Under the pieces are notes generated by a model. It was not told the origin of the DNA. It did not search any database and was given only the letters and a program-made list of their open reading frames with translations. From Candidatus Woesearchaeota archaeon (GTDB lineage Archaea; Nanobdellota; Nanobdellia; Woesearchaeales; ARS49), in the NCBI GenBank assembly GCA_038884975.1, contig JAWAAW010000001.1, forward strand, positions 18,476 to 82,475: 64,000 nucleotides of DNA, in the 5' to 3' direction. Both the position numbers and the translations under genes were made by a program. Of the stretch, positions 18,539 through 62,157 are shown in pieces. How positions within the stretch are numbered: the stretch's first letter is position 1; the number at the start of each line of letters is the position of its first letter.

Positions 18539-18682
18539 ATGAAAAAACCAATTTCGGCAACAATAGAGGAAGACCTCATTGCCTGGATTGACAAAAAGGT
18601 TGCAAAAGAGAGAAAAAGATTTCGAAACAAGTCGCACCTCATAGAAGTCGCACTTGAAAAACTGCGCGAGGAGGAAGACTGA
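18539..18682 (+). CDS. Ribbon-helix-helix (CopG/Arc/MetJ-type) protein, 47 aa, absent from the ORF track
   Basis: Translation MKKPISATIEEDLIAWIDKKVAKERKRFRNKSHLIEVALEKLREEED fits the strand-helix-helix pattern (xxISxxIEEDL ... RNKSHLIEVALEKL). Its TGA overlaps the ATG of the ATPase gene (TGATG). Confidence 0.7.
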   Translation: MKKPISATIEEDLIAWIDKKVAKERKRFRNKSHLIEVALEKLREEED

Positions 18683-38690: not shown

Positions 38691-38692
38691 CT

Positions 38693-39325: not shown

Positions 39326-40563
39326 TTTTTCCTTGTTCCCAGCGCCTCGTGAACTATTGCGGAAATCCAGTGCATCGTGGTAATGTAAGGTGCAATAAAC
39401 ATGTAGATTGCAATGTAGTGCGCGTGCCTGAAAAACCGCTCATTAAATTCCTTATGCGCCAAATACATCAAGTAAATCCCCAGCAGTATGCCAAGCAGTA
39501 TTGGCAAAGTTACTTGCACGTTTTGTGCAAGAAAAAACTTTTCAAAACCAGGAAAATCAAGTACGTGGTTGAAAAAATAGCCTTTAATAGTAAGGCTCCT
39601 GTAGAGGGTTTCATAGAGGTCGCCAAGTGTGCCGTATGCGGCAAGAGAGACTGTCAGAAGCAAAAGGAATATGCTGAGTATATTAAGCGGCATCTGAAAC
39701 AAACCGTAAATTCCATGCGCCTTTTTGAAAAGGAGTCTGCGGTAATTCCAGTGGTTGACTGCAAAGCCACGATACCACCTTATGCGCTGGCGCCAGAGTT
39801 CGTTCCAGCTCCGAGGTGCCTTTGTGTACATTATTGCGCGAGGGTCCATCCGCACTTCGTATCCATGTGAGCGCAGGCGCAAGGCAATCTCAAGGTCCTC
39901 TGTTAGGCCTCCATCACGAAAACCCCCAACTTTCTTCAACACCTTTGTGTTAAACATGGACAGCGCTCCACCCGGCGCGATTGCAAGAGTTCCAAGTGAA
40001 GACATCATCCTCCTGACAAAGTTGCTGATTATGTATTCAATGCGCTGAAGCTTCTCATAAATGTTTTTTGGCTCGTCAACTTTGACCTGACCGATAACAG
40101 CACCAATCTTTGGGTCTGAAAAATGCTTTACTAAGTGGTTCAATGCTTCTGGATGAACTCTTGTATCGCAGTCAAGACAGGTAAACAATTCCCCTACTGC
40201 ATGTGCAAGGGCAGTATTGACTGCGGCTGCCTTGCCCTTGTTGCATTCATGATGCAAAACCTGAATTGGCAGTGCTGGAAACTCCCTTTGCAAACGCTTG
40301 GCTTCTTTAAGAGTATCGTCTGTCGAGCAGTCATCAACGAGAATTATTTGCAGAAGTGTTTTTGGATAATTAAGATTGTTCAGCGACTTTATCGTCTTTG
40401 AAATTACTTTTTCCCTGTTGAAGCAAGGAATTGCAAAAGTGACTGTTGACAACTGTTTTGGCAAAGCCCTTCTTGGGCTGGGTTCAAAGACTATCATGTT
40501 AAGCCATATCAGCGATATCCAAAGGCTGATAAATGAAACTCCCCATAATATGTATTGTATCAT
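39319..40563 (-). CDS. Processive family-2 glycosyltransferase (NodC/IcaA/PgaC/cellulose-synthase-like)
   Basis: DDCSTDDT, DCD, TEDLE and QRIRWYRG (QxxRW), with flanking TM helices. Confidence 0.85.
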   Translation of the reverse strand: MIQYILWGVSFISLWISLIWLNMIVFEPSPRRALPKQLSTVTFAIPCFNREKVISKTIKSLNNLNYPKTLLQIILVDDCSTDDTLKEAKRLQREFPALPIQVLHHECNKGKAAAVNTALAHAVGELFTCLDCDTRVHPEALNHLVKHFSDPKIGAVIGQVKVDEPKNIYEKLQRIEYIISNFVRRMMSSLGTLAIAPGGALSMFNTKVLKKVGGFRDGGLTEDLEIALRLRSHGYEVRMDPRAIMYTKAPRSWNELWRQRIRWYRGFAVNHWNYRRLLFKKAHGIYGLFQMPLNILSIFLLLLTVSLAAYGTLGDLYETLYRSLTIKGYFFNHVLDFPGFEKFFLAQNVQVTLPILLGILLGIYLMYLAHKEFNERFFRHAHYIAIYMFIAPYITTMHWISAIVHEALGTRKKW

Positions 40564-43516: not shown

Positions 43517-43594
43517 GATTATTGCAAGCAAAACCCCTTTTATAAAGTCTTCGCAGCAATATTTTTATAGCCAGTGCAACATTTTGTTTAAGCG

Positions 43595-50721: not shown

Positions 50722-51579
50722 TTATGTTGCAGCACTCCAAGATTCAGGTGCATAAAGAGCAAAAATAATGTCACTCATTGAGCCATAGGGGTTAATTACG
50801 GGATTCTTCGCTGTGCAAACAAGATAGTCAGGATTTGAAGAACTCCTGACAGCAGAAAATGCAGTTATTGTTTTCAGACAATCATCAACAGAATAAGCAT
50901 CAGTGCATTCATAAAATGTCCTTACTGCCGCCTTAAGCGAATCATAAACCTCAAGCCTTGCACTGACAGGAACAGTAAATGAAGGCTTGAAAGAATACTC
51001 ACCAATTGCAGCTTTTTTCAATACCGCAGTTGTTATTGTTATAAACCACCGTTCGTATTTGCGCAGTTCAGGAGGAGGCTGCAACAAGACTCTGGCTGAC
51101 TTAATAGCAGTCCCAGTAACTGAATTATTCTGGACAAAAATCACGTAATTGCCAGCAGGCAGCATTGCGGACTGGTATTTGCTTGTGAAAACATCCATTT
51201 GCTTGTTGAATGCGGCATTTAGTGCCTCATAAGGTTGCACAGAATCCAAACAAAGCATTCCTCTTGCAGACCAAGCATAAATTTTTTTGTTAGCCTCTTC
51301 AATAATGCCACACTTCGCCTCAACCACAGCCCCTGAAGCGGCAACTTCATCAAGCGCGCGATAAACAGACATTTTTGCAGACTGATCAACGTAAAGCAAG
51401 GCATTCTCGCCAGACTGGTACGCATTCAACAGAGCCACCTGAGAACCGCCCAGCGGAGTCTCAAATGACTCAACCTTTGACGCGAGCTGTATGTACATAT
51501 AAATAACAAGTATCAGCGTTACAAGCACCATCATTGCTGAATAATCAATCCCTTTCTTGTTTTTCAGCATCTGAATCAT
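50722..51579 (-). CDS. Secreted/anchored protein with prepilin-like N-terminus, unknown function
   Basis: MIQMLKNKKG|IDYSAMMVLVTLILVIYMY. ATGA overlap with the upstream gene. Last gene of the operon. Confidence 0.55.
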   Translation of the reverse strand: MIQMLKNKKGIDYSAMMVLVTLILVIYMYIQLASKVESFETPLGGSQVALLNAYQSGENALLYVDQSAKMSVYRALDEVAASGAVVEAKCGIIEEANKKIYAWSARGMLCLDSVQPYEALNAAFNKQMDVFTSKYQSAMLPAGNYVIFVQNNSVTGTAIKSARVLLQPPPELRKYERWFITITTAVLKKAAIGEYSFKPSFTVPVSARLEVYDSLKAAVRTFYECTDAYSVDDCLKTITAFSAVRSSSNPDYLVCTAKNPVINPYGSMSDIIFALYAPESWSAAT

Positions 51580-51968
51580 TGGCGCTTCACCTCAACCCTG
51601 TATTCTGAAACTGCGCCATCATAACTGGGAAGAACGGTTTTCATCACAGCACTTGGCAGGTCAATCTTGGAACCGCACAAAAATTTGTCATTCCGATAAA
51701 CTGCAATCTGTGCCTGTGGCCCATAAGCATCACGTGTGACCTGGTCAACCCTTGAGCAGTCATTGCGTTCCAAATCATCAGCGACAGCAGCAAGCAAAAG
51801 CCGCAGCTGGTCTGAGGTGTCCAAATCGATTATTTCTGCCTTGATGTCAAATGCCTGCTTTTTAATGAATGCGCTGGTTGTTAACGTAAAGCCCACCAGC
51901 ACCAACGCTATTATTCCAACCGCTGCGAGCAAAGTAAATGCCCTTCCTGCAAGACCGCGCTTGTTCAT
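51576..51968 (-). CDS. Prepilin-like protein
   Basis: MNKRG|LAGRAFTLLAAVGIIALVLVGF. ATGA overlaps at both ends. Confidence 0.55.
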   Translation of the reverse strand: MNKRGLAGRAFTLLAAVGIIALVLVGFTLTTSAFIKKQAFDIKAEIIDLDTSDQLRLLLAAVADDLERNDCSRVDQVTRDAYGPQAQIAVYRNDKFLCGSKIDLPSAVMKTVLPSYDGAVSEYRVEVKRQ

Positions 51969-52453
51969 CTAAAACCTCCCGGTGGCTTTGGAGCATAAAC
52001 CTGGTCTATTTCCAGCAAGGCAAACTTCTGGCTGTCCTGAATCCAGACAGGCCTTGTCTCAATGAAGTTCTGATACCTAACTGGCGACAATGGTTTCGCT
52101 TCCTTGTATAGCCCTTCATTGAAATACGCTTCATCATGGTCAAGCGTAAGCTTCATCGCAAGTCTTCTTGGAGTGCCCGCAGTCGTAAACGCATCCACAA
52201 TCATTTTCTTGTCCCATAAGCCCTTGCTTGCAAGCACACCCGAATAAATCCTGTGAGTGAGGGGGGATTGCCATGCAGTTTTTGTCAGGATACGCTCTGT
52301 AAAAATCACGTTCTCAAGCCCTGCGGTGTCTGTCTTTTGCGAAAACACACTTGAAGGTGCCTGAACAATAAAGAAAATAACTGCAACAGTAAGCGCAATG
52401 TAAAATATCCAAAAAACCACTGCCTCACTAATTTGAGCCCTGCGATCAAGCAT
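51965..52453 (-). CDS. Prepilin-like/anchored protein
   Basis: ATG at 52453 gives MLDRRAQISEAVVFWIFYIALTVAVIFFIV. The track start at 52462 is a GTG. Overlaps the upstream gene by 8 nt. Confidence 0.5.
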   Translation of the reverse strand: MLDRRAQISEAVVFWIFYIALTVAVIFFIVQAPSSVFSQKTDTAGLENVIFTERILTKTAWQSPLTHRIYSGVLASKGLWDKKMIVDAFTTAGTPRRLAMKLTLDHDEAYFNEGLYKEAKPLSPVRYQNFIETRPVWIQDSQKFALLEIDQVYAPKPPGGFR

Positions 52454-53381
52454 TGGAAACACCCCTCATTATTGCAGTGGCAATCATCATCTGATGACTT
52501 GGGTCTACAAACAAGCTTTGGTCTGAAGCGCTGATTTCAAGCAACACACCAGCAGTTCCTTTTGAAATGACAGAATCATCAGCTGAAGTCTGGTCAGGAT
52601 TAACAGGAATAACTGCCGCACCTGTTACTTCAAAACCCATCCTGCCAAACTCTGTTATTAGCGCATTCACAACCTCGCAGCCAAGGCGCTGGCTTTGGCC
52701 AAGAATCTCAGGAACATTGTCTCCATTTACGAAAGCCTTAATAATTAATTCGCCAGGACTGGAATTGCTCAGTTTTATTGCAAGCAAATTATTTCCCTGC
52801 TTTGGGCCCAGCATTCCACTTGCCATTCGAGCAATCACCTGTTCTGCTTCAGCATTGGAAGCGTGCGCAGACACTACCGAAACCCCGCCAGCGAGCTTTT
52901 CATCACTGCACGTAAGATATTCGCGATAATAATCATAATTGCGCTCATTCAGGTTGCGGACAAGCAAGTTTTTGCCCTGCTTGACAAAGACAGGAATTAC
53001 TTTCTTGTCGCTAAATGACAGGAATGATTCTTCAGTGCTTATGCCCGGATCTGGAGTGAAATAAAATAAGCCGGGAGATGGATCATCAATCTTTGCAAGA
53101 GCACTGACGCTATTCCTTGAAAAGTTGTATAAGTAATTGATGCTGAAGTTCTCACCAACCTGAGGTATATAAATCAAGAAAAGATTTCCCGGCTGAGGCA
53201 TTGCAGGAATTGCATCCTGTATGAGCGCAAGGTCTGTTGCGAGAAAGCGCTTTTCAAAAGTGGTTTTTTCACCAACACCATGAATGTACGACAACATTGT
53301 TATCAGAATCATTACGGCAACCATGGTTTCAAACAAAGGATGCAATACAAAACCTATCCAAGCGCCTTTTTTTGATTTCAT
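52446..53381 (-). CDS. Prepilin-like/anchored 311-aa protein
   Basis: ATG at 53381 (ATGA overlap) gives MKSKKG|AWIGFVLHPLFETMVAVMILITML. The track start is a TTG. Confidence 0.55.
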   Translation of the reverse strand: MKSKKGAWIGFVLHPLFETMVAVMILITMLSYIHGVGEKTTFEKRFLATDLALIQDAIPAMPQPGNLFLIYIPQVGENFSINYLYNFSRNSVSALAKIDDPSPGLFYFTPDPGISTEESFLSFSDKKVIPVFVKQGKNLLVRNLNERNYDYYREYLTCSDEKLAGGVSVVSAHASNAEAEQVIARMASGMLGPKQGNNLLAIKLSNSSPGELIIKAFVNGDNVPEILGQSQRLGCEVVNALITEFGRMGFEVTGAAVIPVNPDQTSADDSVISKGTAGVLLEISASDQSLFVDPSHQMMIATAIMRGVSNA

Positions 53382-53833
53382 GAGCAAGCAGCACCAATAT
53401 GCACTGAATTATCCATCTTGCGGCATATCCTGACAGGCGTGCCTTGAGCAACAGCAACAACTTCAGGCTCAGGATTTATGGCACACATTCCTTTTTCGCA
53501 ATTGCTCTCAATCTTTTGCAGTATCACGCACGTCTTGCTTTCTGAATCGCAAATGCAGGGCTTGCCCTTGCAATAATCATTAGTGTTTCCTGCACCATAA
53601 AACTCAAGAACATAACCACCGCCAGTAGTAATAACGTCAATTGCCTGGTTTGGCTGCAATGCTGCAATTTCCTTGACAACCCTTTCGCGGTCCCTCACCA
53701 CAAGGGTTGTTGGTTTCTTAGATACTTCCCAAACGCCGTAAAATATTGAAAACAAAATAAGGGCAATCATGACAGAAAAAAGAAGTATTCCTGCATGAAT
53801 CACCGGCACTTCAACCTGTCCCTTTTTGTCCAT
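53378..53833 (-). CDS. Prepilin-like Cys-rich protein
   Basis: MDKKGQ|VEVPVIHAGILLFSVMIALILF. The mature part has 8 Cys (CKGKPCICD...CEKGMC). Confidence 0.55.
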   Translation of the reverse strand: MDKKGQVEVPVIHAGILLFSVMIALILFSIFYGVWEVSKKPTTLVVRDRERVVKEIAALQPNQAIDVITTGGGYVLEFYGAGNTNDYCKGKPCICDSESKTCVILQKIESNCEKGMCAINPEPEVVAVAQGTPVRICRKMDNSVHIGAACS

Positions 53834-53873
53834 ACTTTAAAGCCAACAAACAAGGGATATAAATGTTTCTATC

Positions 53874-54179
53874 TCAGCTGACTTCGCAGCAAGACATTCC
53901 TTTTGGCGTGCAGTCAGCCCAAGTGCCTGGAAGTGTGATTGAGTTTGGAACTTCAGAACAACTATTGGCGCACTTTCTTGTGTGGAGCGCAAAAAGGGTT
54001 TCACAAACGTCTGCCTTTGCCTGCTGTTCTGCAGTTTCAGAAATGTTAACATACTTTTTGGAACCTTTCTGCAGCTGCGTGGTTATCAAGACAATAAGAA
54101 CCACCAGCACAACAAGCCCAAGAACAGCAAGAATAATTGTGTTGATTGGCAAACCCTGACCGCGCTTCATAACATTCAT
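53874..54179 (-). CDS. Small type IV pilin-like protein (paralog C)
   Basis: M(NVM)KRGQG|LPINTIILAVLGLVVLVVLIVL. C-terminus contains a CC pair. Confidence 0.7.
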   Translation of the reverse strand: MNVMKRGQGLPINTIILAVLGLVVLVVLIVLITTQLQKGSKKYVNISETAEQQAKADVCETLFALHTRKCANSCSEVPNSITLPGTWADCTPKGMSCCEVS

Positions 54180-54206
54180 TTTTTGCTGCTCCCTATTTAA
54201 TCTTTT

Positions 54207-54851
54207 CTAGTGTATTGCCATCATTATGATGTTGCTGGCCTGTGCGGGATCAACACCGCCCGGCTGAATGTTGCCAACTTGCACGCCACCAAGGCTTCCA
54301 TCACTACCAAGTCTTGAGCTGTCATCCTGCACAAAATCATGATAAACGCCTTGACGGACCTGATTAAAGACAAAAGGCCTGCTCTTTGAATAATCAGAGC
54401 CCCACACAATGCGCAAGTCATTGCCAACAGCCCTCCGCCAGTCCTCATCAATAAAAATATGTGTTTCAAGAACGCCATTCATTGAACGCTCAACCATAAA
54501 ACCCTGCAAAATTCCATCATTTGGATTGAGAATTGGAGTGACTTCCATCATCAGCTTTCCATTTTCATCAAAGTACTTGGTGCCAAAGAAATTTCCCTTG
54601 TAAATCCCCTCGTAAGCAAAAGCAGTAAAGCCCATACCCGGAATCAAAACCTGCTCATTAACATCATTGTATTTCCCTTTGCCACGCGTTGCTTCTTTCA
54701 CATCAACAGAAACACCACCAGGAACAGGCGAAAGCCAGTCAGCAGGATTGTTGCTGTACACGTGCCTTTTTGGCATCATGACCCAACGAATTCCGAGAAT
54801 AATCAGGATTACAATAAGCAATGCCAAGACAACAGCTAAGAGTTTTTTCAT
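54207..54851 (-). CDS. N-terminally anchored/secreted protein, unknown function
   Basis: ATG at 54851 (ATGA overlap with the stop of the 1032-aa gene) gives MKKLLAVVLALLIVILIILGI. Confidence 0.55.
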   Translation of the reverse strand: MKKLLAVVLALLIVILIILGIRWVMMPKRHVYSNNPADWLSPVPGGVSVDVKEATRGKGKYNDVNEQVLIPGMGFTAFAYEGIYKGNFFGTKYFDENGKLMMEVTPILNPNDGILQGFMVERSMNGVLETHIFIDEDWRRAVGNDLRIVWGSDYSKSRPFVFNQVRQGVYHDFVQDDSSRLGSDGSLGGVQVGNIQPGGVDPAQASNIIMMAIH

Positions 54852-57800
54852 GGCCATTTCTCCCAAGCCTCCAATACAACATCAGTCGCTGCAGATATAA
54901 GCCCGGTCGAGAGCAACGCGACAGGGGTTGCCAGTCCGGAAGTAAAGCCAATCATAACTGCATCAACCGCCAGCGAAGCCATTGTTACAACATTCCTAGC
55001 CCATTCCAGCCGAGGAAAGTTATCATAGCAATAAGTTCCGTCAAGAATGTTCGCCTCTATCTCAAGGCAGTCTGGCTTGAAATACTCGTCCTTAAGGAGA
55101 GAATTCAGCATGTTTTTCTTGGCTTCAGAACTCATTGATTCACCCCAAATATTGCCGCCAGCCAAATAGCTATAATAAAGAGTGCCTCCAAAATTCATCA
55201 CGTCCTTCACAAATCCTGCTTGGTCGCACTGCTTGACAGCATGGGAGGCATCATACCATTCTTTCATCCGTTCACCTGCCATAATTGTAGAAGGCCCTCC
55301 CTGCACCTGCCGGGTTCCAGCAAGCCAGTGTATCAATCCATCCCTGCCCTTCACAAGACCGCCGACAGGAGAAACAACATCACTGAAGAAATTGTCATCG
55401 TATTTTTCCATTTCCTCGTCAAGGTATTGTGCGAATGCGTACTTATCATACGAATCGCCGTACACATTTAATTTTGTCATCGCATCAAGAGCATTCCATT
55501 GCGCACGCCAATTCTCAAACTTCACTGCCTTGACAACATCCTCCCACTGCTTCTTGAATTTTGCCTCAAGAACAGCACCTGACAAAGGCTTCACTGAACC
55601 CGGCTCAACATTAATTGTTCCAGTCGGATAAGTGAACTTGTGCAATTGTGGATTCTTGTAACAAGTGCACTTGCGCTTATAAACAACAAGGTCTGCCTTG
55701 CACGGGCTAACATAATACATCCTTTGTCCATACTTGTCCTTGTTGTGCACGAAAAAATCATACGATGCGTTGTTAAGGTCAAGGGGCAACGTTGGACCAA
55801 GCAGTGTTGGCTGGTTGATTGCGAGGGAATTTGCACCAACAGGCCTGAATTTCTCATTAACAGAATCTTGTGCCTCAATAAACCAACCAATTAACAGCAT
55901 TGCAGGATAACTGTGCTGAGCAACCCAGACTGGCAAATTGACCAGTGTCTTGATTGCGGTTCCACCAATTACAAGCCCGCCAGCTGACAGTTTTACAGGT
56001 GATTGTGCTGTAATGAATGCAAAAAGCTCACTCGGCTTCCACACTTTTGGGAAGTTCTTTGTTGAGAACCCGCCAAGAGTTCCTGAGAGGAGAATATCAA
56101 GCATTTCGCGACTGCCACCCAAAGCCTTCTGAACACCTGTCGGATTTATCTTGCCTATAGCATTAAGACTCTTGATTGCTGACTCTGCATTCTTTGTGAA
56201 CAGGTCAATATCCAGTGTTCCCTCTTTTGTAATCATCCCTGAAAGAAGGTCCTCATAAGCGCGCTTTCTGATAATATTTGCTGCCATTTCTTTGCTCAAA
56301 TCTCGCTCTATAAGCTCCTTAAACCCGCCCTTAACCTCTGCGCCAGCAAATGACATTGTTTTCTTTGCGCCAGCTTCTATCGCTTCCTCAGGCAATTCCT
56401 TTCCTTCAATAATGAACTTTTTGATAGATTCCTTATATGCCTGCAAAGCCTTCGCGCGGATTTCTGCTTCAGAAAGCCCCACCTGGCCAGGACCCACCAA
56501 CTCGGTTATCGGTGCCTTTTCCTTCCAAGCCTTGACAAACACATCAGGAACATCATTAATCCTTTTTTCAATAACATCATCAATCTGGCTTGCAAGACCT
56601 TTTTCCATTGCTTTTTGCCACGCTCTTGGTCCAGACCTGGTTCCGATGGATTTCAAAATGACATCTGTAATTTCTTCTGCCACATCATCAGTCATTCCTT
56701 GCACTCCCATCATTGCCTCTTTCATCACCACTGCCTTCATCGTGTTTTCAACGCCGTTCCTGGCAAGCCTGTTAATAATCACTTTCTCTACTTCAGTAAT
56801 TCCACGCTTTGCCAACGCCTCGCCAGTCTGTTTTGCAATTTCTTTTGCCTCTTTTTCAGCAACCTTCTTGACAGCCTTTGCACCCTTTCCAATACCACCA
56901 AACATATTAAAAAAGCCAGAAGCAGTAACTGTTGCGATTGTCCAGAGATTGAACATGTCGCTCCATTCCTTATGCCAGTACTCAGCAGCCTCAGGAGGGA
57001 AGGACTCATAATAAACAAGCCATCGTGGGTCTCCATATGCTGAAAGGAATAGTTTTGCCATTCCGCCACCAACATCCTGCGGAAGCTCAAAACCCTTCAC
57101 AGAGCACGAAAAAGTGTCAGTGGCATCAATATCACAATCATTAATGCTGATGTACTGATGAAAATTGCCGTGCCTGAAATCAATGCAGAAAACCATATCC
57201 TGATTCCTGAAAATTTTTCCTTTATTGAAACTTGTTTGTATCTCAACAGCATTCTGGAATGCCATGTTTGTTTTTGAAAGCAATTCATCAATAACTTTTT
57301 CCTGTCCCGGAAATTTTGCCTTGTTATTTTTCATATAAGAAACCAGCTCGTCCTCATCAATTGAAAAATCATCACCCCGCCTTTTGTAATCAACATAAGC
57401 GCAACGCAAATCCTGCTTAAGGAACGGGTCTGACTTTATCTTGCAGTCTATTATTTGCTTTGAAAGCTCATAAATTACGTCTTCTTTTTTTGCAGGCGCT
57501 ACAACCCGAACAGGCGCAATTCCAGAGCACTTAACAACTGAAGAATCATACTGTTTTGGCTCTGTTGTTGTCATTCCCGTAACAACAGCCCAAGCCTTGC
57601 CTGTCGGAGTCTGCGCCATTTGTTGCGGCACTGCCTCAAGCGGAGGGGGGCAGACTTTAGGGTCATTCGGCCTGAACTCGCCCAAGGCAACACTATTCAG
57701 AGCACAACGCAAAGCATTCACCGAATTCATCACCTTGCGCTCTTCTTCAGTGAGCGGCGGGCCGGTATAAGGAACAAAAACCTTTTCGGCAGGCGCCCTT

Positions 57801-57946
57801 CCAAGAACACCTCTCTCGCCAAAAATTTTTTCTTTGGCAAACTGATAGCCCAGGTTCCCCAGACCATAAACAACAAGAAGTATAACTATTGCTCCGAGCA
57901 CTATGCTGATGAATGCCATTGCCTTTTTGTGCATCATCTCAGCCAT
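54848..57946 (-). CDS. Giant (about 1030 aa) multi-pass membrane protein, unknown function
   Basis: N-terminus (MAEM)MHKKAMAFISIVLGAIVILLVVYGL. Further hydrophobic segments near aa 330, aa 640-690 and the C-terminus. Contains a ~300-aa K/E/A-rich helical region. An alternative start at 57937 gives an ATGA overlap with the upstream smORF. Confidence 0.7.
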   Translation of the reverse strand: MAEMMHKKAMAFISIVLGAIVILLVVYGLGNLGYQFAKEKIFGERGVLGRAPAEKVFVPYTGPPLTEEERKVMNSVNALRCALNSVALGEFRPNDPKVCPPPLEAVPQQMAQTPTGKAWAVVTGMTTTEPKQYDSSVVKCSGIAPVRVVAPAKKEDVIYELSKQIIDCKIKSDPFLKQDLRCAYVDYKRRGDDFSIDEDELVSYMKNNKAKFPGQEKVIDELLSKTNMAFQNAVEIQTSFNKGKIFRNQDMVFCIDFRHGNFHQYISINDCDIDATDTFSCSVKGFELPQDVGGGMAKLFLSAYGDPRWLVYYESFPPEAAEYWHKEWSDMFNLWTIATVTASGFFNMFGGIGKGAKAVKKVAEKEAKEIAKQTGEALAKRGITEVEKVIINRLARNGVENTMKAVVMKEAMMGVQGMTDDVAEEITDVILKSIGTRSGPRAWQKAMEKGLASQIDDVIEKRINDVPDVFVKAWKEKAPITELVGPGQVGLSEAEIRAKALQAYKESIKKFIIEGKELPEEAIEAGAKKTMSFAGAEVKGGFKELIERDLSKEMAANIIRKRAYEDLLSGMITKEGTLDIDLFTKNAESAIKSLNAIGKINPTGVQKALGGSREMLDILLSGTLGGFSTKNFPKVWKPSELFAFITAQSPVKLSAGGLVIGGTAIKTLVNLPVWVAQHSYPAMLLIGWFIEAQDSVNEKFRPVGANSLAINQPTLLGPTLPLDLNNASYDFFVHNKDKYGQRMYYVSPCKADLVVYKRKCTCYKNPQLHKFTYPTGTINVEPGSVKPLSGAVLEAKFKKQWEDVVKAVKFENWRAQWNALDAMTKLNVYGDSYDKYAFAQYLDEEMEKYDDNFFSDVVSPVGGLVKGRDGLIHWLAGTRQVQGGPSTIMAGERMKEWYDASHAVKQCDQAGFVKDVMNFGGTLYYSYLAGGNIWGESMSSEAKKNMLNSLLKDEYFKPDCLEIEANILDGTYCYDNFPRLEWARNVVTMASLAVDAVMIGFTSGLATPVALLSTGLISAATDVVLEAWEKWP

Positions 57947-58098
57947 TCAAGCCAGGCAGCCTGCCTTTGCCCTGCCTTGGCAATCAGCCATATCGCGAAC
58001 AAGAGGACAAACAAGCCAATAATCAAGGCAATAACGTAAGCCCATCCTGGAATGTCCCCTTTCTTATTCCTCAACATTGAATAAAGTGTTCGTATCAT
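57934..58098 (-). CDS. Unannotated small prepilin-like ORF (54 aa)
   Basis: Hand translation MIRTLYSMLRNKKG|DIPGWAYVIALIIGLFVLLFAIWLIAKAGQRQAAWLEWLR. Starts 3 nt after the stop of 58102..59067, and its TGA overlaps an ATG of the giant gene. Confidence 0.5.
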   Translation of the reverse strand: MIRTLYSMLRNKKGDIPGWAYVIALIIGLFVLLFAIWLIAKAGQRQAAWLEWLR

Positions 58099-58101
58099 TT
58101 T

Positions 58102-59067
58102 TCAGTCCAAAAGGAACGTGCAATCACCCTGTGGCGCAACAATCAAGTCCTGCCTGTACTGCAAAATCTTGAGCACGTTTGCATCTTGCTTTATGCCACC
58201 AATGCTAATGCCAGCAATGTCTCCAAGCTGTTGGGCATTAATTCTTTCATAAAGGATTGCAATTCCTTCATCACTTAATTCAAAATTATTCTCTCCCATC
58301 TTAAAAAGGGCGCTTTTCACGGTCTGGCCCTCCTCGATGTATTCCATATACGACTTTGTTAAGTGTGGCACTGGATTATTTGACATAAATTCATTAAGGC
58401 TTGTAATGCTAGTCTTGCCAACAAGCTGAACTATCTGCGGGTCAAACGTGATGTGCGAGCAAAGAATGCAATTAGTTGGCGCTTTCTGCGCCTGCAGCTT
58501 GCCAGAAACAACTTCCCAAATTCCATAAATAGGAACTGCAAACGTGGCAAAATCCTCTAATTTTGAGCACGGCTCTGTCTTCCCATCCTTCTTGCAATTG
58601 TAAAGCCTCCACCACTCATCAAATATTGGAATCCTGCCTTTAAAGACTTTTTCCCAACAAGAAACCATCTGGTCTGCAATAATGCTATCAAGCGCGAACT
58701 CATAAACAAGCTGCTCCTCACTACGCTTTTCAGGATTATCCCTAAAATACGGCGCGGTGTCTTTGTACAATTCCTCACTTTTAATGGTTTTTAACCTTTT
58801 TTTGGCATAACTCACCTTATTGCGGAGGTCTTCTGGCTTTATTACAATACGGCTTGCACGACAACCTTCAGGCACCCCTTCTGCAATACTCAATGAGCCT
58901 GCCTTGCGGATGCCTGCAAGAAGCACAGCCCACTCACAAGCCCCTTTTTCTTCTGCTGCGTAAAGCTTTTTCTCAACAGTCGGATACAAACTAAGAAAAA
59001 CAACAAGAAAAACAACAGCAATACTGAGTGGTATAAGGGCATTAATAATCTCCCCTTGTTTTTTCAT
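58102..59067 (-). CDS. Prepilin-like 321-aa protein, unknown function
   Basis: MKKQG|EIINALIPLSIAVVFLVVFLSL. The mature part has 8 Cys. Confidence 0.6.
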   Translation of the reverse strand: MKKQGEIINALIPLSIAVVFLVVFLSLYPTVEKKLYAAEEKGACEWAVLLAGIRKAGSLSIAEGVPEGCRASRIVIKPEDLRNKVSYAKKRLKTIKSEELYKDTAPYFRDNPEKRSEEQLVYEFALDSIIADQMVSCWEKVFKGRIPIFDEWWRLYNCKKDGKTEPCSKLEDFATFAVPIYGIWEVVSGKLQAQKAPTNCILCSHITFDPQIVQLVGKTSITSLNEFMSNNPVPHLTKSYMEYIEEGQTVKSALFKMGENNFELSDEGIAILYERINAQQLGDIAGISIGGIKQDANVLKILQYRQDLIVAPQGDCTFLLD

Positions 59068-59183
59068 GCAACACCACCAGGAACAATCCTGCCGATTATT
59101 TTAAGGATAATATAAAAAAGTACAACAAGAAGCACAAGAACAACTAAAGTAGTAACAACCAAACGGGACGCACCTCTTTTCAT
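59064..59183 (-). CDS. Unannotated small prepilin-like ORF (39 aa)
   Basis: Hand translation MKRG|ASRLVVTTLVVLVLLVVLFYIILKIIGRIVPGGVA. ATGA overlap with the downstream gene. Confidence 0.45.
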   Translation of the reverse strand: MKRGASRLVVTTLVVLVLLVVLFYIILKIIGRIVPGGVA

Positions 59184-59229
59184 ACCTTGTTCTCGAGAAT
59201 ACTATTTATATAAGGCTTTCGGTGAAGAA

Positions 59230-59511
59230 TCAATAATTGTACTTTTCCTTTGTACAGCAGACTTCCATAAAGCCAAGCCTGGACTTGTCTTCCTTGACAA
59301 AACTGCCAATCTGTGGTTCTCCGCCAAGACTCTCACATTCTGATGCAGACATCACAGCATTAGCAGGACAAACAGATTCCTGCGCCTCACTCACGCCCTT
59401 CCCAAACTTTTGAGCCCTAAAGCCAAAAATGCCGAGAAGGACAAAAAGAACAATTAAACCCAGAGCTGCAATGATGATTACTGTTATTGGAAGACCTTGG
59501 GCTTTTTTCAT
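59230..59511 (-). CDS. Small type IV pilin-like protein (paralog B)
   Basis: MKKAQG|LPITVIIIAALGLIVLFVLLGIF. C-terminus has a CC pair. Confidence 0.7.
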   Translation of the reverse strand: MKKAQGLPITVIIIAALGLIVLFVLLGIFGFRAQKFGKGVSEAQESVCPANAVMSASECESLGGEPQIGSFVKEDKSRLGFMEVCCTKEKYNY

Positions 59512-59645
59512 GTTACTGATGACATTATTGGTATTACGATGTGCTTGTTAAGCACGAACAATGTTGTTATTAAGTAAATGAGTAACAACACCAGAAAGAT
59601 TAGGATAATAATCTTTCCAGGCGTTGCTTCTGTGACGAAGGGCAT
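59508..59645 (-). CDS. Unannotated small TM ORF (45 aa)
   Basis: Hand translation MPFVTEATPGKIIILIFLVLLLIYLITTLFVLNKHIVIPIMSSVT. TAATG overlap with pilin A and ATGA overlap with pilin B. Confidence 0.4.
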   Translation of the reverse strand: MPFVTEATPGKIIILIFLVLLLIYLITTLFVLNKHIVIPIMSSVT

Positions 59646-59962
59646 TATGCTATAGGCACGCAGCAACGCGTGCATTTGACGATATCTTCTGGCTTTATGT
59701 TCTGAGGTTGCCCTGGCTTTACGTAATTGCCACTAACCTCACGCTCAAAACCAGGAGTGCATTCCCTGTCAGCAGTAATCATTACTTTCGAATCACCAGA
59801 GCCTGTGTATTCGCCAACACAAATTCCTGGGCATTCTGCAGTAGCCCTACCAAAGATGGCAAGCCTGCCTGTTGTGATTGCGAACAAAATGACCAGAACA
59901 ACCAGGCCAAGAATGGCGATGATTATTGTTGTTATAGGGAGTCCCTGAGCTTTCTTGTCCAT
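59645..59962 (-). CDS. Small type IV pilin-like protein (paralog A)
   Basis: MDKKAQG|LPITTIIIAILGLVVLVILFAI. C-terminus reads CTRCCVPIA. Confidence 0.7.
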   Translation of the reverse strand: MDKKAQGLPITTIIIAILGLVVLVILFAITTGRLAIFGRATAECPGICVGEYTGSGDSKVMITADRECTPGFEREVSGNYVKPGQPQNIKPEDIVKCTRCCVPIA

Positions 59963-60031
59963 TCAAACACCTCGTTTACTGCAGTTCTGGGAAATAACTA
60001 GGTATATAAAGTTTACTCCTTGTTAAGGCAG

Positions 60032-60370
60032 TCAGTAACTCCTGGGCAGCCTGCCTGACTCGTAGCAGTCTATGACGCCATCCTTATTCTTGTCCTTTTC
60101 AGCAATAGTTTCCCGCATCATCCGCATCGCTTCCATAGCAGCCCTTTCGCGCTCATAGAACCTAACAGCAGCCCATAATCTTTCATTTTCCACCTTGTCC
60201 ACAACCAAATAATCAACGTAATTACTCTCAAGATAAGCCTTTTTAACTATGGAGCCAAAACCACCGCCAAGCGCAAGACCTACAAATGCAATTGTTGCAG
60301 ACTTGCACACATTATTCCAAAAACCAACCGGCTTTTTTTCGCCAATTTTTGAATCAATTGTCTCGTTCAT
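60032..60370 (-). CDS. Membrane-anchored protein with a single C-terminal EF-hand
   Basis: One TM (ATIAFVGLALGGGFGSIV). Canonical 12-residue loop DKNKDGVIDCYE. Confidence 0.65.
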   Translation of the reverse strand: MNETIDSKIGEKKPVGFWNNVCKSATIAFVGLALGGGFGSIVKKAYLESNYVDYLVVDKVENERLWAAVRFYERERAAMEAMRMMRETIAEKDKNKDGVIDCYESGRLPRSY

Positions 60371-60381
60371 TTTAACACCTC

Positions 60382-60690
60382 CTACTGGTTCCTGAGATAG
60401 AACAGGACCTCTTCTTCAGTGATTTTGCCGTCCTTGTTCCTGTCAAGCAAACGTTCAGGACAAGGATATTTTGCCCTGACCGCACCAGCAAGCTTCCTCA
60501 CCTTTTCTGATTCATACTCAATTGCCATTTCTTTTTTTCCATTGTTAAAAAAGCTTATTTTTGGAAGCGCACCTGTCATTTCAAGATGCCTGTAGCCGAC
60601 ATACATACAAACGGCGCAACAGGCTGTCACAAGCGCGAGGTCAAATGCCACACGGATTGCCTCATTTACTTTTTCCTCAAGCTCTCCCAT
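60382..60690 (-). CDS. Membrane-anchored protein with a single C-terminal EF-hand
   Basis: One TM (AFDLALVTACCAVCMYVGY). Canonical loop DRNKDGKITEEE. Confidence 0.65.
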   Translation of the reverse strand: MGELEEKVNEAIRVAFDLALVTACCAVCMYVGYRHLEMTGALPKISFFNNGKKEMAIEYESEKVRKLAGAVRAKYPCPERLLDRNKDGKITEEEVLFYLRNQ

Positions 60691-61156
60691 AACCCATCAC
60701 CTGCCCTGCGAGCGAAGGATCAGAAAGGAAGCTCTCACGCTTCAATTCCTCAACAATAAAATGAACCTCCTTTGTCTTCACACCATAAGATTGCTCAAGC
60801 TTCTCGCAGAATTCCTCAAGCTCACGCATGTCCCTAAAAACACATTCTGCCATGAAATCATAACCGTTATTGATACGCATCAAAGAATTAACATTAGTGG
60901 AGCACAACAAGTGTTCTTTCAGCTGATCACGCTTTTCCTTCAGCACCTTGAACATAATTGTTGCACAAGTATTAAAACCAAGCTTCTGGAAGTCAAGCAA
61001 AGCAGAAAGCCTTTTTATGCCTATCGAGTCAGGCGAATGAATCCTATCGAACAAGGTGCTGACAGGAATGCCAGTCAGCCTTGACAATTTTGACAGCTTT
61101 ATGCGCGCATCCTGCCTCAAATGCGCTGTTATTGCCAGCAATTTTTCCTCACGCAT
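60677..61156 (-). CDS. Lrp/AsnC-family transcriptional regulator
   Basis: Start trimmed to MREEKLLAITAHLRQDARIKLSKLSRLTGIPVSTLFDRI (HTH), with a C-terminal RAM-like domain. 14-nt overlap with the first EF-hand gene. Confidence 0.7.
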   Translation of the reverse strand: MREEKLLAITAHLRQDARIKLSKLSRLTGIPVSTLFDRIHSPDSIGIKRLSALLDFQKLGFNTCATIMFKVLKEKRDQLKEHLLCSTNVNSLMRINNGYDFMAECVFRDMRELEEFCEKLEQSYGVKTKEVHFIVEELKRESFLSDPSLAGQVMGYGRA

Positions 61157-61284: not shown

Positions 61285-62157
61285 ATGCGACGCAAAGTCA
61301 TAAAACTTGGAAAGAATTCCCTGCTCGTCAGCCTGCCGAGCAGGTGGGCAAAACAACACGGAATAAAGAAAGGTGATGAGGTCGAAGTTAGCACTAATTC
61401 CAGCCAGGTAATCATCACCTCAAAACAGGCAGAAAAGAAAAACAAAATTATGGTCCTTGCAGAAGACCCCGAAGTTGCTGCAAGACAGATAAAAATCGCA
61501 TACAAGAAGGGAATTGATGAGCTTGAAGTGCAGTATGAAAACCCAAAAGCGTACGCAGCAGCATTATCAGAGCTCAAGAACCTCATCGGATTTGAGATCG
61601 TCGACTCAGGAAAAAAATACAGCAGGATAAAGAACATTGCAATAGGAGAAATAGAGGAATTCAGCGTTGTACTCAGAAGGGCATTCCTTTCCTTGCTTGA
61701 AATGGCGGAAAGCGTTGAAGAGTGTGCAAAAGGCTCAAAAGAAGCAATAGAGCACGTGAATGTTGCCGAGAACGACATTGACAGGCTGACTGACTTCTGC
61801 AAACGCCTATTGAACAAGCAGGGAGCAGAAGACAACAATACCCTAACAATGAATTACGGATTGCTCAAGGACATTGAACGCATTGCAGACCATTACTCAA
61901 GCATTGCACAAACAAGAATGCCAAAGGAAGCTCAAGGATTCCTAACGCAGGCAAGAGCACAATTAAGGATGGTTTACGAGCTTTTCTATTCCTACGACCA
62001 CGCAAAGGCGGGTAAGTTGCTGAAGGAACTGAAGCAACTTGATAGTTCAGCAGAGAAATTGTTGCGCGGGAAAAGTCCTCTAGCCGTGCACCATATTGCA
62101 GGCATAATACAAATGCTTAATGAGATGAGCTGGGCGGTGTGCGCGCGCTCAATGTGA
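61285..62157 (+). CDS. AbrB/SpoVT-type domain fused to PhoU-like domain (paralog of 3793..4725)
   Basis: MRRKVIKLGKNSLLVSLPSRWAKQHGIKKGDEVEV followed by a helical PhoU-like body. Confidence 0.7.
   Translation: MRRKVIKLGKNSLLVSLPSRWAKQHGIKKGDEVEVSTNSSQVIITSKQAEKKNKIMVLAEDPEVAARQIKIAYKKGIDELEVQYENPKAYAAALSELKNLIGFEIVDSGKKYSRIKNIAIGEIEEFSVVLRRAFLSLLEMAESVEECAKGSKEAIEHVNVAENDIDRLTDFCKRLLNKQGAEDNNTLTMNYGLLKDIERIADHYSSIAQTRMPKEAQGFLTQARAQLRMVYELFYSYDHAKAGKLLKELKQLDSSAEKLLRGKSPLAVHHIAGIIQMLNEMSWAVCARSM

What the first reader, a model, noticed from the sequence alone, without database searches (positions are those of the whole stretch)
50722..61156. ~17-gene translationally coupled operon of prepilin-like and unknown membrane proteins: candidate undescribed surface filament/attachment system
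From 61156 down to 50722 every gene is on the minus strand. Most junctions are ATGA, TAATG or 8-14-nt overlaps, for example at 60677-60690, 59645, 59508-59511, 59064-59067, 57934-57937, 54848-54851, 53378-53381, 52446-52453, 51965-51968 and 51576-51579. The gene order is: Lrp/AsnC regulator, two single-EF-hand membrane proteins, pilin A, smORF, pilin B, smORF, 321-aa protein, smORF, ~1030-aa multi-pass protein, 214-aa protein, pilin C, then proteins of 151, 311, ~163, 130 and 285 aa. At least 11 products begin with a short basic stretch ending in [KR][KR]-G/Q (KKAQG, KRGQG, KKQG, NKKG, KKGQ, SKKG, NKRG, MKRG) followed by a ~20-residue hydrophobic helix. That is the layout of archaeal class III (type IV prepilin) signal peptides. 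Beyond the N-termini I could not recognise any family in the mature domains. The operon contains no assembly ATPase, platform protein or prepilin peptidase. The only ATPase/platform pair in the window lies 28 kb away at 18.7-23.1 kb. This number of distinct pilin-like subunits, plus a giant polytopic protein and Ca-binding modules under one regulator, does not match the archaellum, Aap, Ups or Epd gene orders that I know.
Basis: partly seen in the sequence, partly recalled or inferred. Interest (0 to 1): 0.85.

Follow-up and report, generated by a model that had tools for sequence, protein, structure and literature searches.

The report
DPANN pilin cluster linked to wall-hydrolases
A Woesearchaeota genome carries a conserved, unannotated block of 17 genes, 12 of them pilin-like, and in related genomes the same subunits are fused to enzymes that cut bacterial cell walls, so the block probably builds a filament for gripping, and perhaps breaching, bacterial hosts.

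Summary
Seventeen minus-strand genes lie between 50722 and 61156, with the stated overlaps, and 12 begin with [KR][KR][GA] followed by a hydrophobic helix. Only 4 of about 65 other ORFs in the window do (Fisher p about 1e-7).

The window comes from a Candidatus Woesearchaeota MAG. Apart from the Lrp regulator and weak EF-hand hits, no Pfam, NCBIfam or PDB family matches.

The block is not unique. The same gene order recurs in about 25 DPANN loci, and the 1032-aa protein family has 642 representative clusters.

The 311-aa subunit belongs to an N-acetylmuramoyl-L-alanine amidase (Amidase_3) family. In relatives, the equivalent pilin-like subunits carry Amidase_2, NlpC/P60 plus SLT, M23 or PG-binding domains. 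The window's own amidase copy has lost two of its four catalytic residues.

The block is probably four or five transcription units rather than one operon. It continues beyond the window end with four more pilin-like genes and a 1687-aa adhesin-like protein.

Best reading: these are the structural genes of a type IV filament, assembled in trans by the ATPase/platform pair at 18.7-23.1 kb, and used to bind or digest bacterial peptidoglycan. No prepilin peptidase was found and filament formation has not been shown. I class it as a new variant of a known kind.

The parts
60677..61156 (-). Lrp/AsnC-type regulator (159 aa; the ORF could extend to 61213)
   Evidence: PF01037, E = 1.7e-7, 31.4 bits, above cut-off. 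Orthologs occupy the same position in L003, L004, L005, L007, L023, L039 and L040.
60382..60690 (-). 102-aa membrane protein with one C-terminal EF-hand loop (DRNKDGKITEEE)
   Evidence: EF-hand_1, E = 4.4e-4, below cut-off. Found only here and in L003.
60032..60370 (-). 112-aa membrane protein with one EF-hand-like loop (DKNKDGVIDCYE)
   Evidence: EF-hand_1, E = 0.055. Found only here and in L003.
59645..59962 (-). Pilin A (105 aa). Probable cleavage at KKA|QGLPITT. Six Cys. Candidate major subunit.
   Evidence: 68 homologs, all annotated as hypothetical. Q6, G7, L8, I10, C44, C100 and C101 are invariant. The AF2 model has pLDDT 82, with a helix at 10-37 and a small beta head. Its own TATA box and an SD-like GAGGTG lie upstream.
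60003..60010 (-). TTTATATA box 40 nt upstream of the pilin A start codon
   Evidence: TTATATW occurs 26 times in the window against 8.6 expected.
59508..59645 (-). 45-aa (ORF up to 55 aa) single-helix membrane protein without the [KR][GA] motif
   Evidence: Conserved directly after pilin A in 7 loci.
59230..59511 (-). Pilin B (93 aa), KKA|QGLPITV
59064..59183 (-). 39-aa helix-only pilin-like smORF, MKRG|ASRLVVTT...
   Evidence: Translation. Called as a gene in the Logan assembly L002. TTATATA at 59207-59213 lies 23 nt upstream.
58102..59067 (-). 321-aa Cys-rich pilin-like protein (MKKQG|EIIN...)
   Evidence: Orthologs in 20 loci. No PDB or Pfam match.
57934..58098 (-). 54-aa helix-only pilin-like smORF (NKKG|DIPGWAYV...), overlapping the giant gene
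   Evidence: 26 family members; 23 of 26 carry [KR][GAS] before the helix.
54848..57946 (-). 1032-aa signature protein. It has a class III-like N-terminus (HKKA|MAFISIV), two Cys-rich ectodomains (about 32-327 and 701-978), a Cys-free K/E-rich helical middle, a weakly hydrophobic C-terminal hairpin and an invariant C-terminal WP.
   Evidence: motifs DPxWLVYYE and SPCKA; AF2, pLDDT 59.5; 642 representative clusters. No structural or sequence match.
54207..54851 (-). 214-aa signal-anchored beta-rich protein, a constant partner of the giant gene
   Evidence: Present in 16 loci, on either strand. F89, D135, D137, W138, G168 and Y170 are invariant. Only 2 of 14 members have a [KR][GA] motif. No PDB match.
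53874..54179 (-). Pilin C (98-101 aa), KRG|QGLPINT, six Cys
53378..53833 (-). 151-aa pilin-like protein (KKG|QVEVPV), eight Cys. A TATA-like ATTTATATCC lies upstream.
   Evidence: In L029 the protein at this position is 509 aa and carries Amidase_2 (E = 3.9e-13).
52446..53381 (-). 311-aa bimodular pilin-like protein (SKKG|AWIGF) with a degenerate Amidase_3 module at about residues 195-311
   Evidence: In family alignment A3, 7 of 13 members hit Pfam Amidase_3 (best 7e-19). The profile hits the PDB amidases CwlV, LytH and AmiA/C (3e-9). The catalytic tetrad H-E-H-E reads -EKE here and is intact in 6 orthologs. The window copy has no Pfam hit.
51965..52453 (-). 162-aa pilin-like protein (RRA|QISEAVV)
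51576..51968 (-). 130-aa pilin-like protein (NKRG|LAGRAF)
50722..51579 (-). 285-aa pilin-like protein (NKKG|IDYSAMM). Its family has variable C-terminal extensions.
   Evidence: Orthologs range from 270 to 1178 aa. The L012 ortholog carries NlpC/P60 (1.1e-14) and SLT (2.4e-5).
61285..62157 (+). Divergently transcribed AbrB/MazE-PhoU regulator, a conserved neighbour
   Evidence: PF04014 and PF01895. Same position in L003, L004, L005, L007, L023 and L040.
62117..63919 (-). Membrane protein of at least 600 aa (639 aa in the record; its start lies beyond the window). It links this block to four more pilin-like genes and a 1687-aa TSP3/Ig-like surface protein outside the window.
   Evidence: The same arrangement occurs in L023 and L040.
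18682..20955 (+). Secretion ATPase (FlaI/TadA/VirB11 class), the candidate assembly motor acting in trans
   Evidence: PF00437, 4e-16. TadA-family and FlaI NCBIfam models score about 1e-34, below their cut-offs.
20904..23105 (+). 733-aa polytopic protein overlapping the ATPase gene, the candidate platform (TadC/FlaJ-like)
   Evidence: Only a weak T2SSF hit (E = 0.033, covering positions 13-125 of 125). No PDB hit. Its position beside the ATPase supports the assignment.

Best explanation
The block encodes the structural subunits of a DPANN-specific type IV filament (a pilus or short pseudopilus), together with two regulators.

**Proposed roles**
- Three small Cys-rich proteins share the mature N-terminus QGLPI(T/N)T and are the likely major pilins.
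- sm39 and sm54 are helix-only subunits, comparable to Flp or Epd pilins.
- The 151-, 311-, 162-, 130-, 285- and 321-aa proteins, and probably the 1032-aa protein, are minor or 'modular' pilins. Each has a common N-terminal helix that inserts into the filament and a different head that does the work.

**Proposed function**
In the wider family those heads are peptidoglycan hydrolases or binders. The inferred job of the filament is to attach the small archaeon to a bacterial cell and locally bind or cut its murein. In this genome the amidase head has decayed, and probably binds rather than cuts.

**Proposed assembly**
Assembly would be driven in trans by the ATPase/platform pair at 18.7-23.1 kb, after cleavage by a class III signal peptidase encoded elsewhere.

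**What is shown and what is inferred**
Shown: the gene set, the N-terminal motif, its conservation, the conserved synteny, and the amidase homology and hydrolase fusions in relatives.
Inferred: cleavage, polymerisation, use of the distant ATPase, and a bacterial target.
For: **Motif**
- The N-terminal motif is enriched in the block.
- It is kept by orthologs across about 25 loci: 38/38 small pilins, 23/26 sm54, 21/25 giant, 13/13 of the 321-aa family, 9/9 of the 285-aa family and 11/12 of the 130-aa family.
- The co-conserved 214-aa signal-anchor protein lacks it (2/14).

**Pilin A**
- Its N-terminal 33 residues are nearly invariant while its head varies.
- The AF2 model is a long helix plus a small beta head.

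**Family relationships**
- Different families share only the KKG-plus-helix module (hhalign probability 76% over 41 columns).

**Hydrolase link**
- Amidase_3 homology of the 311-aa family.
- Other hydrolase modules on pilin-like proteins at orthologous or adjacent positions: Amidase_2 in L029, NlpC/P60 plus SLT in L012, GDSL plus Amidase_3 and SLT in L018, and M23 and PG_binding_1 in L028.

**Motor and literature**
- A T2SSE ATPase with an adjacent polytopic protein is present in the same genome.
- Pilin loci separate from the ATPase are known in archaea (PMC4858521; preprint 10.64898/2026.04.22.720090).
- Grafting functional modules onto pilins is established in bacteria (PMC8179133).
- Peptidoglycan hydrolases are known to be frequent in Nanoarchaeota/Woesearchaeota (PMC12352652, PMC8204110, PMC9723730).
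Against: - No Pfam or NCBIfam pilin model hits any product.
- Foldseek finds no pilin match for the pilin A model. The best PDB sequence hit to a pilin, T. thermophilus PilA5, has E = 0.75.
- No prepilin peptidase lies in 82 kb of this contig or near the block in three other MAGs.
- The ATPase is 28 kb away and is never within 10 kb of the block in relatives.
- The platform assignment rests on E = 0.033.
- The window's own copy of the amidase lacks two of the four catalytic residues and has no Pfam hit.
- Apart from Amidase_3, each hydrolase type was seen in only one locus.
- If the giant protein is polytopic, it cannot be extruded into a filament.
Confidence: 0.6

Rival explanations
1. The proteins are not polymerised. 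The [KR][GA]-plus-helix N-termini are uncleaved signal anchors that hold a set of ectoproteins (hydrolases, binders, the giant protein) in the archaeal membrane as a fixed contact or feeding patch. No ATPase is involved.
For: No peptidase was found. The ATPase is never linked to the block. No pilin model or fold match was found. The giant protein may span the membrane several times. The 214-aa partner is a plain signal anchor.
Against: A plain anchor does not explain the near-invariant QGLPITTIIIA...TGRL N-terminus of the small proteins. It also does not explain a small residue directly after the basic pair being kept in eight unrelated families but not in the 214-aa family. Helix-only products of 35-40 mature residues have no head to anchor.
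Confidence: 0.2
2. The hydrolase-bearing subunits serve the archaeon's own envelope or act as released lysins. Either they are space-making enzymes that let the apparatus cross a wall of the producer, or this is a bindosome-like surface display of secreted enzymes with no role in host attachment.
For: Bacterial trans-envelope machines often recruit lytic transglycosylases, amidases or NlpC/P60 enzymes (my own knowledge: VirB1, BfpH, CwlT, PrgK). The Sulfolobus bindosome shows that class III signals can be used for non-filament display. The ATPase scores weakly against the BasE model (3.5e-14, far below cut-off).
Against: No murein synthesis genes appear in the 82 kb inspected, and archaea other than pseudomurein producers are not known to have such a wall. 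The catalytic module has decayed in about half of the lineages while the rest of the subunit is kept. That pattern fits a binding or attachment role better than an essential self-remodelling one.
Confidence: 0.12
3. The pattern is a by-product of short, fast-evolving ORFs in an AT-rich genome and has no common function.
For: Several products are very short (39-55 aa), and none has a database family.
Against: The same 17-gene order, with the same families including the smORFs, recurs in about 25 loci at 20-80% identity. Enrichment of the motif has p about 1e-7.
Confidence: 0.01

Closest known systems
Archaeal type IV filament 'system 1' / Epd pili of Methanococcus maripaludis (preprint 10.64898/2026.04.22.720090; PMC4858521)
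   Same: Many different class III-signal subunits. [KR]G|Q-type cleavage sites. Helix-only pilins lacking a globular head. Some pilin genes sit away from the ATPase. This system is reported in methanogens and some DPANN.
   Different: Here there is no ATPase, no pair of platform genes and no dedicated peptidase in the cluster. No Epd or arCOG-derived Pfam/NCBIfam pilin model matches. The 1032-aa, 214-aa, 321-aa and hydrolase-bearing families have no Epd counterpart.
Bacterial modular minor pilins and tip complexes (S. sanguinis PilB/PilC; PilY1 with FimU-PilVWXE; PMC8179133)
   Same: A common N-terminal pilin module carries different functional heads. There are several minor subunits beside a few major ones. 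Very large tip-associated proteins are present.
   Different: The lineage is archaeal, with no detectable sequence or fold homology. The heads are murein hydrolases, which are not among the common bacterial modules discussed in that paper. Tip location is untested.
Sulfolobus bindosome (Bas system) (my own knowledge; NCBIfam BasE model)
   Same: Class III signal peptides are used to mount functional, non-pilin proteins on the archaeal surface with help from a dedicated ATPase and membrane protein.
   Different: The cargo there is sugar-binding proteins. The Bas genes are adjacent to each other. The window's ATPase scores far below the BasE cut-off (52 bits against 1000).
Large extracellular lytic-transglycosylase proteins and other peptidoglycan hydrolases of Woese-/Pacearchaeota (fam00969 and Module 98, PMC8204110; PMC9723730; PMC12352652)
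   Same: Same organisms, same inferred target (the bacterial wall) and the same idea of episymbiosis or predation on bacteria. Module 98 is a set of 51 mostly unknown families specific to these lineages and may overlap this block.
   Different: Those reports treat the hydrolases as free or Sec/Tat-secreted enzymes. They do not connect them with pilin-like N-termini or with a conserved pilin gene cluster. The PLoS Biology survey found a known signal peptide in only 32% of them.
Cell-wall hydrolases of bacterial trans-envelope machines (VirB1, BfpH, CwlT, PrgK; my own knowledge)
   Same: Membrane-anchored NlpC/P60, SLT and M23 combinations are encoded inside the gene cluster of a filament or secretion machine.
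   Different: Those enzymes open the producer's own wall. Here the producer is an archaeon with no known murein.

Membership tests
Archaeal type IV pilins / class III signal-peptide proteins | Short basic leader ending in [KR][GA], followed by about 20 hydrophobic residues at the extreme N-terminus | tested here: met
   12 of 17 products have it. It is conserved in orthologs.
Archaeal type IV pilins / class III signal-peptide proteins | Match to curated pilin N-terminal models (Pfam Class_IIIsignal, Pilin_N; NCBIfam archaeal pilin/archaellin N-terminal models) | tested here: not met
   No such hit at E up to 0.1 (Pfam) or 1 (NCBIfam).
Archaeal type IV pilins / class III signal-peptide proteins | 'Lollipop' fold: a long N-terminal helix packed against a beta-sheet head | tested here: inconclusive
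   The AF2 model of pilin A (pLDDT 82) has a helix at 10-37 plus three strands. Foldseek against PDB gives nothing below E = 2.8. The best pilin by sequence profile has E = 0.75.
Archaeal type IV pilins / class III signal-peptide proteins | Cleavage by a PibD/FlaK/EppA-type peptidase encoded in the genome | not testable with these tools
   No Peptidase_A24 hit and no GxGD motif in record positions 49-131 kb. The rest of the MAG could not be read.
Type IV filament machinery | Secretion ATPase of the FlaI/TadA/PilB class | tested here: met
   PF00437, 4e-16, above cut-off. It lies 28 kb from the block.
Type IV filament machinery | Polytopic platform protein (T2SSF/TadC/FlaJ) | tested here: inconclusive
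   T2SSF, E = 0.033, 14.6 bits against a cut-off of 25.2, though it covers the whole model. The gene overlaps the ATPase gene.
Epd pilus locus (M. maripaludis) | One cluster holding the ATPase, two platform genes, a dedicated peptidase and the pilins | tested here: not met
   None of these is in the block or within 10 kb of it in any relative.
Amidase_3 (N-acetylmuramoyl-L-alanine amidase), for the 311-aa protein | Sequence homology to the domain | tested here: met
   Met at family level: 7 of 13 members hit the Pfam model (best 7e-19), and the profile hits PDB amidases at 3e-9. The window copy alone gives no Pfam hit.
Amidase_3 (N-acetylmuramoyl-L-alanine amidase), for the 311-aa protein | Zinc ligands H, E, H and the catalytic E | tested here: not met
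   The window copy reads gap-E-K-E. Six orthologs read H-E-H-E.
Lrp/AsnC regulators | AsnC-type ligand-binding domain with an N-terminal HTH | tested here: met
   PF01037 is above cut-off. The HTH models are below cut-off, at E about 0.016.
EF-hand proteins | Canonical 12-residue Ca-binding loop recognised by the Pfam models | tested here: inconclusive
   Scores are 20.1 and 13.5 bits against a cut-off of 25.4. Both loops fit the D-x-[DN]-x-D-G-x-I-x-x-x-E pattern by eye.

The most novel reading that the evidence does not exclude
The block, together with its upstream extension, is the structural core of a host-wall-breaching organelle common to several DPANN phyla. In this reading it is a type IV-derived filament whose minor subunits are interchangeable murein hydrolases or binders. 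Its 1000-aa signature protein, with two ectodomains and an invariant C-terminal hairpin ending in WP, would anchor or insert at the contact site. That would be direct genomic evidence that many Woese-, Pace- and Aenigmatarchaeota live on bacteria rather than on archaea, and it would name the machine they use.
Probability: 0.27. Interest if true: 0.9.

Novelty: new variant of a known kind. Interest (0 to 1): 0.72.

Why it matters
Hosts and attachment mechanisms of the very abundant Woesearchaeota and their relatives are unknown, because almost none are cultured.

A vertically inherited cluster that occurs across DPANN loci, and that couples pilin-like subunits to murein hydrolases, offers three things. 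It gives a concrete candidate for the contact apparatus. It gives a marker (the 1032-aa family, with 642 representative clusters) for finding that apparatus in metagenomes. It gives a testable prediction that the partner has a peptidoglycan wall.

It would also explain why most archaeal peptidoglycan hydrolases lack a recognised Sec or Tat signal (PMC12352652): some may use class III signals instead. And it extends the 'modular pilin' principle from bacteria to archaea.

Tried and rejected
**Searches that gave nothing**
- Pfam, NCBIfam and PHROGs scans of all window products found nothing beyond Lrp and the weak EF-hand hits.
- Foldseek of the pilin A model against PDB: nothing below E = 2.8.
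- Foldseek of the giant-protein model: nothing below E = 0.37 against PDB. Against BFVD the top hits were phage tape-measure proteins, but with E at or above 0.04 and TM-scores about 0.1, so I do not use them.
- Profile searches against PDB sequences for the 285-, 321- and 214-aa families and the giant family were all negative.
- The 1687-aa upstream protein was checked as a possible giant lytic transglycosylase. It has only TSP3 and Ig-like hits.
- A search for a prepilin peptidase, by GxGD motif and by precomputed Pfam hits over 82 kb, found none.
- tblastn of the ATPase/platform and their neighbours against 32 related loci found none within 10 kb of the block.
- hhalign between subunit families found only the N-terminal module shared.
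- A literature search by accession number returned nothing useful.

**Rejected ideas**
- Mobile island: rejected because the flanking housekeeping genes RPA, YdjM, RadA and S2 are syntenic in relatives.
- T4SS-like system: rejected because there is no VirB4- or VirD4-type ATPase.

Full report
**Source and gene set.** The window is the reverse complement of positions 57314-121313 of contig JAWABN010000001.1 (227 kb) of assembly GCA_038884635.1. NCBI labels this MAG 'Candidatus Woesearchaeota archaeon'. Its products in the block are all 'hypothetical protein', for example QXR48_00450 for the 1032-aa protein and QXR48_00475 for pilin A. ORF listing and the record's own gene calls agree on sixteen minus-strand genes between 50722 and 61156. 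A seventeenth is a 39-aa ORF at 59064-59183 (MKRGASRLVVTT...), which was called in an independent Logan assembly and which overlaps the 321-aa gene by ATGA.

**Junctions.** They comprise 4-nt overlaps at six junctions, one each of 1, 8, 13 and 14 nt, and gaps of 3 to 69 nt at the rest.

**The N-terminal motif.** Twelve of the seventeen products start with a short basic stretch ending in [KR][GA] followed by a hydrophobic helix (the 321-aa protein reads KKQG). With one mechanical rule, 8 of 16 block genes pass against 4 of about 65 other ORFs in the window (Fisher p = 1.3e-4). The three small proteins share a nearly invariant N-terminus, [KR][AG]-QGLPI(T/N)T-IIIA-LGLVVLVILFAI-TGRL, across 68 database homologs, while their Cys-rich heads vary. 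That pattern is what a peptidase site plus a filament-core helix would give. It places the cut before Gln, as in the KG|Q sites of Methanococcus pilins (my own knowledge; see also 10.64898/2026.04.22.720090). An AF2 model of pilin A (pLDDT 82) is a helix (residues 10-37) followed by a small three-stranded head.

**No known family.** Apart from the Lrp/AsnC domain, which scores above its cut-off, and two sub-threshold EF-hand hits, nothing in Pfam, NCBIfam or PHROGs matches any product. Foldseek finds no structural neighbour for pilin A or for the 1032-aa protein. Profile searches of five families against PDB sequences were negative, with one exception described below. By curated models, therefore, these are not members of any described pilin family, although they are built like pilins.

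**Conservation.** The 1032-aa protein is a good marker. A word-indexed search found only 12 relatives. A full HMMER scan with their alignment found 642 representative clusters at E up to 1e-3, and 162 at 1e-30. A pattern scan of one genome per species returned 32 loci in MAGs labelled Woese-, Nano-, Aenigmat- and Nanohal-archaeota. Several 'uncultured Methanosarcinales' TPA labels are probably placeholders, because the same loci carry the same DPANN-type neighbours.

tblastn and iterated HMM searches over those loci, together with independent gene calls in three further MAGs, show one recurring order:
- AbrB-PhoU regulator (divergent)
- Lrp
- one to four QGLPI-type pilins with a small membrane protein between them
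- a 321-aa family member
- sm54
- the giant protein
- the 214-aa protein, on either strand
- another pilin
- then the 151-, 311-, 162-, 130- and 285-aa families
- then RPA, YdjM and RadA

The block is therefore vertically inherited and embedded among housekeeping genes. It is not a mobile island. The two EF-hand genes are found only here and in the closest relative.

Orthologs keep the motif in 38/38 small pilins, 23/26 sm54, 21/25 giant, 13/13 of the 321-aa family, 9/9 of the 285-aa family and 11/12 of the 130-aa family. The equally conserved 214-aa family has it in 2/14. This internal control argues that the small residue after the basic pair is selected, and is not a side effect of the positive-inside rule. 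hhalign shows that the families share only this N-terminal module.

**The peptidoglycan link.** Long orthologs were scanned to see what their extensions contain.
- The 285-aa family member in L012 (1178 aa, in the conserved 311-162-130-285 order) carries NlpC/P60 (1.1e-14) and SLT (2.4e-5).
- The protein at the 151/311 position in L029 (509 aa) carries Amidase_2 (3.9e-13).
- 311-aa family members carry Amidase_3 (L004 at 4.6e-7; L018 at 4e-49, together with a GDSL esterase).
- In an alignment of thirteen 311-aa family members, seven hit Pfam Amidase_3 on their own (best 7e-19).
- The family profile finds the solved amidases CwlV, LytH, AmiA and AmiC (best 3e-9).
- The precomputed annotation of another MAG agrees, as does one database homolog.
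- A pooled scan of 56 other pilin-like proteins from these loci added M23 (5.5e-27), a second SLT (4e-14) and PG_binding_1 (7.9e-8). All three are on [KR][GA]-helix proteins next to the giant homolog in two Aenigmatarchaeota loci.

Five catalytic classes of murein hydrolase and one murein-binding domain are thus mounted on the pilin-like N-terminus in this system, in at least two DPANN phyla. Apart from Amidase_3, each was seen only once, so the generality of the other fusions is not established.

**This genome's copy.** The 311-aa protein aligns over its whole length with the family. It lacks the DPGHG block and has Lys in place of the second zinc-binding His, so the tetrad reads gap-E-K-E. 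Six orthologs keep H-E-H-E and about half of the lineages are degenerate. The window copy is therefore best called a pseudo-amidase, possibly retained as a binding module. No other hydrolase domain was detectable in the block, or in the 1687-aa TSP3/Ig-like protein upstream.

**Limits of the block.** Just beyond the window end the record encodes a 639-aa membrane protein, whose last 600 residues are in the window. Beyond that lie four more class III-like genes: 158 aa (KGQ|MEIMGLAI), 161 aa (KKAQ|IKMFETVG), 355 aa (KRA|IELQFNWIF) and 170 aa (NRAQ|TIGQIF). Then comes a 1687-aa Cys-rich surface protein. The same extension is present in L003, L023, L040 and others. The finding's coordinates therefore cover only part of the system.

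**Transcription.** TATA-like boxes lie 40 nt upstream of pilin A (TTTATATA, with GAGGTG before the ATG), 23 nt upstream of sm39 and about 22 nt upstream of the 151-aa gene. The heptamer TTATATW is three-fold enriched in the window, and many copies lie in intergenic stretches just upstream of genes. Together with the strand flips of the 214-aa gene in relatives, this suggests four or five units:
- Lrp-EF-EF
- pilin A-sm45-pilin B
- sm39-321-sm54-giant-214
- pilin C
- 151-311-162-130-285

Each unit is internally coupled by overlaps. The block does not look like a single operon.

**The giant protein.** AF2 gives a moderate model (pLDDT 59.5), with confident alpha/beta ectodomains at about 67-325 and 700-860 and a helical middle. 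All 14 cysteines lie in residues 32-327 and 701-978. There are none in the K/E-rich stretch 352-640, which is compatible with an in-out-in-out topology. However, only the N-terminal helix is clearly hydrophobic (Kyte-Doolittle 2.83). The other candidate segments score at or below 1.6. 'Multi-pass' therefore remains open. A single-anchor protein with a 1000-residue ectodomain and a C-terminal amphipathic hairpin ending in an invariant Trp-Pro is equally possible.

**Motor and peptidase.** The only secretion ATPase in the window is at 18682-20955 (T2SSE 4e-16; TadA and FlaI models about 1e-34, below their cut-offs). The overlapping 733-aa polytopic protein gives only a weak, full-length T2SSF hit (E = 0.033). 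No Peptidase_A24 hit or GxGD motif occurs in the 82 kb of the contig that could be read. None occurs near the block in other MAGs either. Makarova et al. already noted nanoarchaeal ATPases without identifiable pilins, and two nanoarchaea without a recognised peptidase (PMC4858521).

**Literature.**
- Diverse unannotated pilins next to FlaI/TadC in DPANN 'dark-matter islands' have been noted in general terms (PMC6393860).
- A 2026 classification of archaeal type IV filament systems mentions DPANN under systems 1 and 4A, but not this cluster (10.64898/2026.04.22.720090).
- Castelle et al. describe a module of 51 mostly unknown families specific to Pace- and Woesearchaeota, together with giant lytic-transglycosylase proteins (PMC8204110).
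- Vigneron et al. and the 2025 PLoS Biology survey report peptidoglycan hydrolases in these archaea. Only 32% of them have Sec or Tat signals, and no link to pili is made (PMC9723730, PMC12352652).
- Modular pilins are established in bacteria (PMC8179133).

I found no paper that connects a conserved DPANN pilin cluster with hydrolase-bearing pilin-like subunits. The library searched is not complete.

**Verdict.** The most likely mechanism is a type IV filament whose minor subunits present murein-binding or murein-cutting heads to a bacterial partner, assembled by a distant ATPase/platform pair. Cleavage, polymerisation and the target are inferred, not shown. It is a new variant of a known kind of machine rather than a new category. 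Its breadth across DPANN and the hydrolase link make it well worth follow-up.

Noticed in passing
window 564-1550 (-): A 328-aa protein with a GGDEF (diguanylate cyclase) domain according to precomputed Pfam hits. This is unusual for an archaeon.
   Followed up: no
window 23119-23233 (-): Rfam tRNA match of 115 nt (46 bits) that ARAGORN did not call. It is probably an intron-containing tRNA directly downstream of the platform-like gene.
   Followed up: no
window 1651-2118, 4722-5123, 5227-5682, 5763-6077 (all -): Four small Cys-rich proteins with N-terminal hydrophobic anchors (three share ILGIVA(V/I)IAVVGLVLL). A TTATATA box lies upstream of three of them (none was found for 5763-6077), and a second AbrB-PhoU paralog lies beside them at 3793-4725 (+).
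   Followed up: partly
window 15379-17144 (+) and 17174-18395 (-): Three paralogous multi-pass membrane proteins and two coiled-coil proteins lie immediately upstream of the secretion ATPase. None has a significant Pfam family and none was found near the pilin block in relatives.
   Followed up: partly
window 62117-63919 (-), continuing beyond 64000; L037 10833-20378: A 639-aa membrane protein, then four more class III-like genes (158, 161, 355 and 170 aa) and a 1687-aa TSP3/Ig-like surface protein, lie just outside the window. They are syntenic in relatives (L003, L023, L040).
   Followed up: yes
window 35182-43531: A cluster of large membrane proteins with a GT2 glycosyltransferase and a PMT_2/DUF2079-like protein. 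Four neighbours of 392-696 aa have no family. It may be a surface-glycan assembly locus.
   Followed up: no
L012 8099-8581 (-) and L014 6917-7402 (-): In these loci the 311-aa family member is only about 160 aa, with no amidase module. In L012 the 285-aa family member has gained NlpC/P60 plus SLT. This looks like hydrolase modules being swapped between subunits.
   Followed up: partly
L018 14085-16649 and L028 15138-17747: Two proteins of about 860 aa among the 56 scanned matched right-handed beta-helix/NosD models, and these two are the likely ones. They lie near the giant homolog in Aenigmatarchaeota loci and may be further adhesins or glycan-degrading proteins.
   Followed up: no
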